Source: Shigella phage Sf13
Sequence record: MF158040
DNA: 64,000 bases
Direction: 5' to 3' (one strand)
In this document: one piece after another, positions 12,583 to 12,657 of the stretch
Numbering within the stretch: the stretch's first letter is position 1
Layout of the letters: each line of letters begins with the position of its first letter
Position numbers and translations under genes: made by a program
Notes under the pieces: generated by a model
Told to the model about the DNA's origin: nothing
Database searches by the model: none
Seen by the model: only the letters and a program-made list of their open reading frames with translations

Positions 12583-12657
12583 TGGTAGCCCATCGGGATT
12601 TGAACCCTGTTCTCATGTTTTTCAGACACGCGCTTTAACCATATAAGCTAATTGAGC
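12583..12657 (-). tRNA. tRNA-Phe-like (anticodon GAA) with defective T-stem; possible pseudogene
   Basis: Good D-arm (GCTT/AAGC) and anticodon arm (loop CUGAAAA) but T-stem has only about 3 bp and acceptor register is inconsistent. Confidence 0.45.

What the first reader, a model, noticed from the sequence alone, without database searches (positions are those of the whole stretch)
12583..12657. tRNA-Phe-like gene with a broken T-stem
The locus has a good D-arm and anticodon arm (anticodon GAA) and a canonical T-loop, but the T-stem pairs over only about 3 bp and no acceptor register satisfies both stem and T-arm. It may be a pseudogene, or a tRNA-like RNA with another role; the overlapping track ORF (11832..12629) only extends into it through a GTG start.
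Basis: seen in the sequence. Interest (0 to 1): 0.45.

Follow-up and report, generated by a model that had tools for sequence, protein, structure and literature searches.

The report
Conserved odd-shaped phage tRNA-Phe gene
This is the phenylalanine tRNA gene of a Felix-O1-like (Mooglevirus) phage. Its acceptor/T arm really is one base short and carries two bulged A's, but the same shape is kept with compensatory mutations across the whole phage subfamily, so it looks like a working, unusually built tRNA rather than a dead gene.

Summary
The window is a Mooglevirus (Ounavirinae), about 99.9% identical to Shigella phage Sf15. The finding is tRNA-Phe(GAA), 12583-12658 on the minus strand, one of 25 tRNAs in an array.

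Rfam scores it 39.2 bits (threshold 29), but only with two one-base deletions on the 3' side. It is the only CCA-encoding tRNA of the array with 12 rather than 13 nt between T loop and CCA. It also has 8 rather than 7 nt before U8.

The best-fitting fold has:
- a 7-bp acceptor stem with a bulged A7;
- a T stem of GGG/CCC plus one C-G pair, with a bulged A51;
- about 11 stacked pairs in total, against the canonical 12.

The pseudogene reading is contradicted:
- The same geometry occurs in all four Ounavirinae genera.
- Nine pairs show double-sided changes.
- The anticodon, D and T loops and the CCA are invariant.
- Diversity is about 6 times lower than at synonymous sites.

The same short T arm also occurs in tRNA-Phe genes of three Bacteroidota chromosomal tRNA arrays.

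Most likely this is a functional but non-canonical elongator tRNA. Expression and charging remain untested. It is a new variant of a known kind, of moderate interest.

The parts
12583..12658 (-). tRNA-Phe(GAA) gene, 76 nt including the encoded CCA
   Evidence: ARAGORN. Rfam RF00005, 39.2 bits. Annotated tRNA-Phe in Sf15 and most of the 284 related phage records.
12653..12658 (-). Acceptor 5' strand, tRNA positions 1-6 (AGCUCA), pairing with positions 67-72
   Evidence: Paired in all lineages except one Felix-type metagenomic variant with a single C.A mismatch. Four of these six pairs show double-sided changes. The helix is 100% paired in the 7-sequence set.
12652..12652 (-). Bulged A7, the extra base on the 5' strand; no partner in any lineage
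   Evidence: Invariant AA at positions 6-7 in all four genera. Rfam shows it as a deletion opposite.
12651..12651 (-). Position 8 (canonical position 7), pairs with position 66 (window 12593)
   Evidence: U-A in Moogle and Kolesnik, G-C in Felix and Susp. UA:3, AU:2, GC:2 in the 7-sequence set.
12632..12648 (-). D arm (GCUU / AUAUGGUUA / AAGC) with G18 G19
   Evidence: Four invariant pairs. Standard in the Rfam alignment.
12614..12630 (-). Anticodon arm. Loop CUGAAAA, anticodon GAA at 12621-12623
   Evidence: The loop is invariant in four genera, while three of the five stem pairs change on both sides in Kolesnikvirus.
12594..12609 (-). T arm: C50-G65, bulged A51 (12608), G52-54/C62-64, loop UUCAAAU (12598-12604). 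The 3' strand has only 4 nt.
   Evidence: The 50:65 pair is C-G in Moogle, Kolesnik and L080, U-A in L084, and G.A in Felix and Susp.
12587..12593 (-). Acceptor 3' strand, positions 66-72 (AUGGGCU)
12583..12586 (-). Discriminator A73 plus encoded CCA
   Evidence: RCCA is invariant in four genera (A in Moogle and Felix, G in Susp and Kolesnik). 24 of the 25 tRNAs of the array encode CCA.
11832..12566 (-). Downstream DUF7217 gene. Its start is 16 nt after the tRNA, preceded by AGGUG. It is context, not part of the tRNA.
   Evidence: Pfam DUF7217, E=4.6e-84. Sf15 gp102 annotation..
16375..16404 (-). Best sigma-70-like site of the region (TTGACA-18-TG-TATAGT, 11 of 12), just upstream of the first tRNA of the array. 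Candidate array promoter.
   Evidence: The total number of such sites is not above the shuffled expectation, so the argument rests on position only.
11481..11498 (-). Terminator-like hairpin plus T-run, downstream of the last tRNA (Cys)
   Evidence: pattern match only.

Best explanation
This is the phage's own elongator tRNA-Phe. It is functional but has a conserved non-canonical acceptor/T arm.

Inferred pathway:
- It is transcribed as part of the roughly 5-kb minus-strand tRNA array.
- Host RNase P cuts it at A1. The U at -1 and the 3' ACCA fit what I recall of E. coli RNase P preferences.
- The 3' end is trimmed to the encoded CCA.
- Host PheRS charges it, mainly through G34 A35 A36 and the purine at position 73.
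- It then reads UUY codons, topping up or replacing host tRNA-Phe late in infection.

What the sequence shows: the acceptor stem is 6 bp, then a bulged A7, then one more pair (8:66). The T stem is GGG/CCC plus one closing pair (C50:G65), with a bulged A51. There are only 12 nt between the T loop and CCA. The coaxial acceptor/T stack therefore has about 11 pairs instead of 12.

The shape is shown here. Transcription, processing, charging and decoding are inferred.
For: - Detected by both tRNA tools above threshold.
- Present in 284 phage records and 28 IMG/VR contigs, all Ounavirinae.
- Identical indel geometry in four genera.
- Covariation on that fold: 96% of cells paired; 9 pairs changed on both sides, against 3.4 +/- 1.4 in shuffles and 0-2 when the partners are slid. 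The figure is 97.9% with three extra sequences.
- The 7-nt anticodon loop, G18 G19, the T loop (only R57 varies) and the RCCA end are invariant, while the stems change.
- Diversity is 0.040, against 0.021-0.030 for the neighbouring tRNAs and 0.239 for third codon positions. All 13 variable sites lie in the acceptor stem or junction.
- It is the only tRNA-Phe in an array that covers 18 amino acids in ARAGORN's call of this window (19 in Sf14, PMC12482277).
- The same 4-nt 3' T-stem strand, with a perfect 7-bp acceptor stem, occurs in tRNA-Phe of three Bacteroidota tRNA arrays whose other tRNAs are nearly all standard.
- Published work treats this gene as an ordinary tRNA: Cove 43.77 in Felix O1 (PMC3185647), and inclusion in the Sf14 tRNA pool (PMC12482277).
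Against: - No expression, processing or charging data exist for any Ounavirinae tRNA in the searchable literature.
- The tRNAscan-SE Phe isotype model scores it only 13.8 bits, below Ile2, Ala and Arg (PMC12482277).
- By my recollection of the E. coli PheRS identity set, several minor elements (A26, G44, U45, U59) are not matched.
- As I recall, an 11-pair acceptor branch is not known to be accepted by EF-Tu or the ribosome in bacteria. Mukai et al. (PMC5389517) state that 12 bp is believed universal apart from Sec and His.
- The covariation rests on only four phage lineages, so on few independent events.
- The closing T-stem pair is G.A in Felix and Susp.
- Phe codon usage does not differ from the host (PMC12482277), so there is no codon-bias rationale.
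Confidence: 0.7

Rival explanations
1. A tRNA-like RNA kept for a job other than decoding. It could be an RNase P / RNase E processing signal that releases the downstream DUF7217 mRNA, or a decoy or sponge for a host tRNA-targeting nuclease or other tRNA-binding factor.
For: - The irregular arm and the poor Phe isotype score.
- In Moogle, Felix and Susp the DUF7217 gene starts 16-20 nt after the CCA.
- The array holds other marginal tRNA-like elements.
Against: - A pure processing signal would not need an invariant anticodon loop with GAA, U33 and A37, G18 G19, or a purine-CCA end.
- In Kolesnikvirus the tRNA is followed by tRNA-Lys, not by the DUF7217 gene, yet it keeps the same shape.
- It is the only Phe acceptor in an otherwise near-complete set.
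Confidence: 0.2
2. A decaying pseudogene: a former canonical tRNA-Phe that suffered indels and is drifting.
For: - Low covariance score with two deletions.
- A weak fold (MFE -15.2 kcal/mol, among the weakest of the array).
- tRNAscan flags neighbours (His, Tyr) as pseudo in some records (PMC3185647).
Against: - The same indel pattern is fixed in four genera.
- Stem changes are compensatory.
- There is no substitution in any loop among 36 Moogle, Felix and Susp loci.
- Diversity is about 6 times below synonymous sites.
- Only one metagenomic variant carries an uncompensated mismatch (L023).
Confidence: 0.05
3. An ordinary 7/5 tRNA that the first reader mis-indexed.
For: It is called by ARAGORN and passes the Rfam gathering score.
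Against: - The Rfam alignment itself needs two deletions.
- ARAGORN needs a 6-nt T loop plus mismatches.
- The count from T loop to CCA is 12, against 13 in the other 23 tRNAs.
Confidence: 0.02

Closest known systems
Canonical bacterial and phage class I elongator tRNA, e.g. E. coli tRNA-Phe (sequence verified in 5426 of 5426 E. coli genomes)
   Same: - Cloverleaf with a 4-bp D stem, G18 G19 and a 5-bp anticodon stem.
- A 7-nt anticodon loop with U33, GAA and A37.
- A T loop UUCRAAU with G53:C61.
- A73 and an encoded CCA.
- Total length of 76 nt.
   Different: - 63% identity only.
- The 5' acceptor strand has 8 nt, with a bulged A.
- The 3' strand of the T stem has 4 nt.
- There are 12 rather than 13 nt from T loop to CCA, giving about 11 stacked pairs instead of 12.
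- The variable loop has 4 nt.
(8/4) tRNAs with a bulged A51a in the T stem (minor tRNA-Sec, selC* tRNA-Cys), and (8/4) tRNA-Ser / tRNA-His of phage tRNA clusters (Mukai et al. 2017, PMC5389517; review PMC7609411)
   Same: - A shortened 4-bp T stem with one unpaired A on its 5' strand.
- 8 nt on the 5' acceptor strand.
- Occurrence in phage tRNA gene clusters.
   Different: - Those tRNAs keep a 12-bp branch by having a true 8-bp acceptor stem. Here the eighth 5' base has no partner: the 3' strand has 7 nt.
- Most of them are class II or Sec-like, with long variable arms. This one is class I with a Phe anticodon.
tRNA-Phe genes in Bacteroidota chromosomal tRNA arrays (L080 4911-4985, L084 3876-3950, L109 4284-4358 on the minus strand)
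   Same: - Identical 3' half geometry: T loop, then 4 nt, then 7 nt, then A, then CCA.
- The motif N-A-GGG...CCC-N' with 49:64-type covariation (C-G, U-A).
- 68-77% identity to the phage tRNA.
- Array context.
   Different: - They have a plain 7-nt 5' acceptor strand with no bulged A7.
- Their flanking genes are ordinary bacterial genes (L25, DNA pol III delta, amylase).
- They were found with a pattern that required this geometry, so common descent with the phage gene is not established.
Other low-scoring or 'pseudo' tRNAs of Felix-O1-like arrays (His and Tyr are flagged pseudo by tRNAscan-SE; PMC3185647)
   Same: The same array, AT-rich, with weak stems and low covariance scores.
   Different: His folds canonically (49.3 bits). 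The two tRNA-Lys have canonical lengths with mismatched T-stem bases. Only Phe has a length defect on the 3' side.

Membership tests
tRNA (Rfam RF00005) | Covariance-model score at or above the gathering threshold | tested here: met
   39.2 bits against 29, covering model positions 1-71.
tRNA (Rfam RF00005) | D arm with G18 G19, a 5-bp anticodon stem, and a 7-nt loop with U33 and a purine at 37 | tested here: met
   Rfam alignment. These features are invariant across four genera.
tRNA (Rfam RF00005) | T loop U54 U55 C56 R57 A58 closed by G53:C61 | tested here: met
   UUCAAAU or UUCGAAU flanked by GGG/CCC in all lineages.
Canonical 7/5 tRNA (12-bp acceptor branch) | A 7-bp acceptor stem, a 5-bp T stem and a 2-nt connector | tested here: not met
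   Two deletions in the Rfam alignment. 12 rather than 13 nt from T loop to CCA. 8 nt before U8. Both alternative folds I scored explicitly, including a shifted 7/5 register, leave at least two positions unpaired.
Canonical 7/5 tRNA (12-bp acceptor branch) | An unpaired discriminator followed by CCA | tested here: met
   ACCA or GCCA is invariant. U-1 could pair with A73, but U at -1 is the rule across the array (19 of 25).
(8/4) tRNAs of Mukai et al. 2017 | An 8-bp acceptor stem plus a 4-bp T stem, giving a 12-bp branch | tested here: not met
   The T stem is 4 bp or fewer, and the 5' strand has 8 nt. But the 3' acceptor strand has only 7 nt, so A7 is unpaired. A count of 12 is reached only if the -1:73 pair were retained, which was not tested.
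tRNA-Phe identity (E. coli PheRS substrate) | G34 A35 A36 and A73, plus core elements (U20, G10, A26, G44, U45, U59, U60). This set is recalled from Peterson and Uhlenbeck 1992 and was not re-read. | tested here: inconclusive
   Present: GAA, U20, G10, U60, and A73 (G73 in Susp and Kolesnik). Absent: position 26 is G, 44 is A, 45 is G, 59 is A. The tRNAscan Phe isotype score is 13.8 (PMC12482277).
tRNA pseudogene | Relaxed constraint: uncompensated stem changes, loop substitutions, patchy retention | tested here: not met
   The gene is retained in 284 of 289 related phage records.
Functional tRNA | A mature, CCA-ended, aminoacylated species in infected cells | not testable with these tools
   No RNA data are available. 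Literature searches found none.

The most novel reading that the evidence does not exclude
Ounavirinae tRNA-Phe may be a natural elongator tRNA with an 11-pair acceptor branch (7 bp plus a bulge, over 4 bp plus a bulge). It would nevertheless be processed, charged and used by the E. coli, Salmonella or Shigella translation machinery. It would also belong to a wider, undescribed '7/4' structural class of tRNA-Phe that recurs in tRNA gene arrays of phages and Bacteroidota.
Probability: 0.4. Interest if true: 0.65.

Novelty: new variant of a known kind. Interest (0 to 1): 0.45.

Why it matters
Apart from tRNA-Sec, tRNA-His and the 8/4 and 9/3 allo-tRNAs, prokaryotic tRNAs are held to have a 12-bp acceptor/T branch that RNase P, EF-Tu and the ribosome rely on (PMC5389517; PMC11551756).

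A conserved, apparently selected tRNA with one base fewer on the 3' side would be a ready-made test of how much deviation that machinery tolerates. It sits in Felix-O1-type phages, which grow on E. coli, Salmonella and Shigella and are easy to handle.

There is also a practical point. Annotation pipelines and codon-adaptation analyses, such as the tAI calculations for Sf14, count this gene as a normal tRNA-Phe without knowing whether it is charged.

If it turns out to be ordinary in function, the result is still useful. It shows that a low covariance score and a 'broken' T stem in a phage array do not mean a pseudogene.

Tried and rejected
1. Alternative folds.
- A shifted 7/5 register using the base at -1 gives 92.9% paired cells, but the 51:67 and 52:66 pairs fail.
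- ARAGORN's fold with a 6-nt T loop breaks the near-universal G53:C61 / 7-nt loop arrangement and fits Felix-type sequences worse.
- RNAalifold's extension pairs U8 with position 65 (a '9/3-like' fold). It cannot be excluded, but it is uninformative because U pairs with either purine, and it would sacrifice the U8:A14 tertiary pair.
- Nearest-neighbour energies do not favour the isolated pairs next to the bulges. The fold therefore rests on covariation, not energy.

2. Y-RNA / YrlA link. The weak Rfam hit (16.6 bits against 69) is just the tRNA-His T arm followed by the tRNA-Phe D arm. Rejected.

3. Overlap with the long ORF 11832-12629. This is an artefact of the GTG-extended ORF definition.

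4. Search for more lineages. Three pattern scans of IMG/VR and one of metagenomes returned only Ounavirinae, plus two unrelated hits. A strict scan of 185,579 species genomes returned nothing.

5. The relaxed genome scan was cut at 120 loci. In 109 of its 121 matches ARAGORN calls no tRNA. The ones I inspected are mostly 3' tRNA-Phe fragments without a 5' half, plus some non-tRNA sequence.

6. I first assumed the three Bacteroidota arrays were phage. Their flanking genes are ordinary bacterial genes, so I withdrew that.

7. Literature. No paper comments on the shape of this tRNA.

Full report
**What and where.** The window is a Mooglevirus genome segment (Ounavirinae, the Felix-O1-like myoviruses). 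Window 11600-13100 is 99.9% identical to Shigella phage Sf15, and 289 phage records match it. ARAGORN finds 25 tRNA genes on the minus strand between 11656 and 16347. The finding is tRNA-Phe(GAA) at 12583-12658 on the minus strand, and Sf15 annotates it as such. Immediately downstream lies a DUF7217 gene (11832-12566 on the minus strand; Pfam E=4.6e-84). The ATG annotated in Sf15 lies 16 nt after the tRNA's CCA.

**Checking the observation.**
- The Rfam tRNA model scores the locus 39.2 bits against a gathering score of 29. It is the second lowest of the 23 tRNAs listed for the window.
- The alignment is full length but contains two one-base deletions. [quoted passage not shown]
- ARAGORN forces a fit with a 6-nt T loop, an A.C mismatch, an A.A mismatch and a 3-nt connector.
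- A simple count is the clearest statement. In 23 of the 24 tRNAs of this array that encode CCA, there are exactly 13 nt between the 7-nt T loop and CCA (5 for the T stem, 7 for the acceptor, 1 discriminator). tRNA-Phe has 12.
- On the 5' side it has 8 nt, not 7, before the U8-A9 connector.

The D arm, anticodon arm, anticodon loop CUGAAAA and T loop UUCAAAU are normal.

**Is it decaying?** No.
- A 101-nt query around the tRNA hits 284 phage records, all Felix-O1-like by name or host. Degenerate-pattern scans of IMG/VR return 28 contigs of 23-94 kb, most of them 84-94 kb.
- They reduce to four lineages: Mooglevirus, Felixounavirus, Suspvirus and Kolesnikvirus. All four have the same indel geometry.
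- Between lineages the stems change by compensation. On the fold described below, 96% of cells form standard pairs. Nine pairs have changes on both sides, against 3.4 +/- 1.4 in column shuffles and 0-2 when the 3' partners are slid by 1-3 columns.
- The anticodon stem of Kolesnikvirus differs from the others at four of five pairs, yet the 7-nt loop is identical. G18 G19, the T loop (apart from R57) and the purine-CCA end are also invariant.
- Among 36 distinct Moogle, Felix and Susp loci, mean pairwise diversity is 0.040 in tRNA-Phe. It is 0.021 and 0.030 in the adjacent tRNA-His and tRNA-Gln, and 0.239 at third codon positions of the adjacent gene.
- All 13 variable tRNA positions are acceptor-stem or junction positions (1, 3, 4, 5, 8, 50, 65, 66, 68, 69, 70, 72, 73).
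- Caveat: four lineages give few independent events, and the shuffle control is not a probability.

**The fold.** I number from A1 = window 12658.
- Positions 1-6 pair with 72-67. The pair types seen are A-U/G-C, G-C, C-G/U-A/G-C, U.G/C-G/U-A, C-G/U-A and A-U.
- A7 has no partner and is invariant.
- Position 8 pairs with 66: U-A in Moogle and Kolesnik, G-C in Felix and Susp. This double-sided change is what places the bulge at A7 rather than giving an A7.A66 mismatch.
- The T stem has three invariant G-C pairs (52-54 with 62-64). It has one closing pair, 50:65, which is C-G in Moogle and Kolesnik but G.A in Felix and Susp. A51 is unpaired.
- The coaxial acceptor/T stack thus has 7 + 4 (or 7 + 3) = 11 (or 10) pairs, plus two single-A bulges, instead of 12.

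Alternatives:
- A register shifted by one, using the base at -1, gives a worse T stem.
- RNAalifold extends the acceptor helix with U9:R65, giving a '9/3-like' picture.
- U-1 can always pair with position 73 (U-A, U-A, U.G, C-G). That would bring the count to 12 if the base were retained. However, U at -1 is the rule in this array (19 of 25) and, as far as I recall, is what E. coli RNase P prefers. I therefore regard this pairing as incidental.
- Thermodynamic evaluation does not reward the isolated pairs next to the bulges. The junction details rest on covariation only and need probing.

**A wider occurrence.**
- A strict pattern for this geometry found nothing in one genome each of 185,579 species.
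- A relaxed pattern (CTGAAAA, GG-TTCNANT-CC, 10 nt, CCA) returned more than 120 loci, truncated.
- In 109 of the 121 matches ARAGORN calls no tRNA. Those I inspected are mostly 3'-terminal tRNA-Phe fragments without a 5' half, plus some non-tRNA sequence.
- Three Bacteroidota MAG contigs carry complete tRNA-Phe genes with a perfect 7-bp acceptor stem, A73, CCA and the same T arm. These are L080 (CAGGG...CCCG), L084 (UAGGG...CCCA) and L109 (AUGGG...CCCA, a plain 4-bp stem).
- Each sits in an array of 8, 25 and 8 tRNAs whose other members nearly all have standard T arms. Their flanking genes are ordinary bacterial genes.
- When the gap is placed at A7, the combined seven-sequence alignment pairs 97.9% of cells. 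The acceptor helix is 100% paired, and 50:65 reads CG:3, UA:1, other:3.
- These comparators were found with a pattern that demanded the geometry, so they show that the shape recurs. They do not show how common it is, or that it shares ancestry with the phage gene (68-77% identity, against 63% to E. coli tRNA-Phe).

**How it most likely works.** The sequence shows a tRNA-shaped RNA under purifying selection, with a Phe anticodon, an encoded CCA and an irregular acceptor branch.

The rest is inferred:
- Transcription is with the array. The best sigma-70-like site of the region, TTGACA-18-TG-TATAGT, lies at 16404-16375, just upstream of the first tRNA. A terminator-like hairpin at 11498-11481 follows the last one (pattern matches only).
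- The 5' end is cut by host RNase P at A1.
- The 3' end is trimmed to CCA.
- Host PheRS charges it, chiefly through the anticodon.
- It is used for UUY codons when host tRNA becomes limiting. This is the 'all-destructive infection' view argued for phage Sf14 (PMC12482277).

That paper, and the Felix O1 genome paper (Cove score 43.77; PMC3185647), treat this gene as an ordinary tRNA. Neither comments on its shape. The Sf14 paper does record that its Phe isotype score is only 13.8 bits and that Phe codon usage equals the host's.

I put 0.7 on 'functional, non-canonical elongator tRNA' and 0.2 on 'tRNA-like RNA with a non-decoding role'. The second option (a processing signal for the downstream mRNA, or a decoy) is weakened by the invariant anticodon loop. 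It is also weakened because Kolesnikvirus keeps the shape in a different gene context. I put 0.05 on a pseudogene and about 0.02 on a mis-read canonical tRNA.

**Comparison with what is known.** It works like a class I elongator tRNA. It passes the general tRNA tests but fails the 7/5, 12-bp branch test.

The nearest described irregular tRNAs are the (8/4) species of Mukai et al. (PMC5389517; review PMC7609411). They share a 4-bp T stem, sometimes with a bulged A51a, and some occur in phage tRNA clusters. Those keep 12 bp through a true 8-bp acceptor stem. Here the eighth 5' base is unpaired because the 3' strand has only 7 nt, so I do not file it as an 8/4 tRNA.

I found no description of a '7/4' tRNA-Phe in the searchable literature. 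Absence from that library is not proof of novelty.

**Verdict.** The pseudogene interpretation is rejected. Another role cannot be excluded but is less likely. The gene itself is long annotated. What is new is that its irregular geometry is conserved, compensated and recurrent. It is a new variant of a known kind, of moderate interest (0.45). The interest rises if charging and ribosomal use are demonstrated, which is easy to test in E. coli, Shigella or Salmonella.

Noticed in passing
window 16020-16096 (-): The second tRNA-Met(CAT) is also irregular. Rfam gives only 31.7 bits, with one deletion in the 3' acceptor strand, which amounts to an extra A on the 5' strand before U8. In ARAGORN's register it has a U1.C72 mismatch, and its anticodon loop is CUCAUUA (U at position 37). 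This is the same kind of 5'-strand extra base as in tRNA-Phe.
   Followed up: partly
window 15708-15788 (-): A tRNA-Tyr(GTA) that tRNAscan-SE annotates in Sf15 is not called by ARAGORN here. It scores only 22.8 bits in Rfam, with gaps in the T stem. Felix O1 lists it as 'Pseudo (Tyr)'.
   Followed up: partly
window 12666-12742 (-): tRNA-His(GTG) folds canonically (49.3 bits when searched alone), yet it was missing from the whole-window Rfam gathering list. It has C73 but a T at -1, so no G-1 is encoded. It is flagged pseudo or tRNA-OTHER in wV8 and Felix O1.
   Followed up: partly
window 13771-13846 and 15094-15169 (-): Both tRNA-Lys genes have T stems with only three Watson-Crick pairs (GGG/CCC) and two mismatched positions. 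Their lengths are canonical, and they still score 54-57 bits.
   Followed up: no
window 15365-15439 (-) and 14291-14365 (-): Sub-threshold tRNA-like elements lie in the gaps of the array. One scores 28.8 bits against the tRNA model, just under the 29-bit cut-off, with a clean T arm (GAAGG UUCGAUU CCUUC). The other scores 21.5 bits against the tRNA-Sec model. They may be degenerate tRNAs.
   Followed up: no
window 16375-16404 (-) and 11481-11498 (-): A near-consensus extended -10 promoter-like site lies just upstream of the first tRNA (Pro). A terminator-like hairpin lies just after the last (Cys). Together they bracket the whole array plus the embedded DUF7217 gene and a small ORF, as one candidate transcription unit.
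   Followed up: no
window 11656-16347 (-), spacers: 24 of the 25 tRNAs encode CCA and 19 of 25 have U at -1. Many are preceded by a recurring AT-rich spacer such as (A/G)ATTTAAT, CAAATAAT or CAAATTAT.
   Followed up: no
window 16513-17928 (-): The gene bordering the array encodes a DUF2828 + DUF7788 protein of 471 aa, of unknown function.
   Followed up: no
L060-L179 (genome-contig hits), e.g. L060, L064, L090, L100, L103: Many Proteobacteria genomes and MAGs carry isolated 3' fragments of tRNA-Phe with no 5' half. Their tail is one base shorter than the canonical one as I recall it (for example ...CCGCCCCTGGCACCA). They may be att-site remnants of integrated elements.
   Followed up: no
L089 1428-1502, L130 2673-2747 (-), L165 246-321, L174 649-723: These are full-length bacterial tRNA-Phe genes whose 3' acceptor strand has 6 instead of 7 nt, so G7 is left unpaired. 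The missing base lies in a C or G run, so homopolymer assembly errors cannot be excluded.
   Followed up: no
L080 4253-5273; L084 559-4569: These are Bacteroidota chromosomal tRNA arrays of 8 and 25 genes. They include suppressor-like anticodons (tta called 'Stop', tca called 'SeC') and Ile(tat). Most members do not encode CCA, although the tRNA-Phe does.
   Followed up: partly
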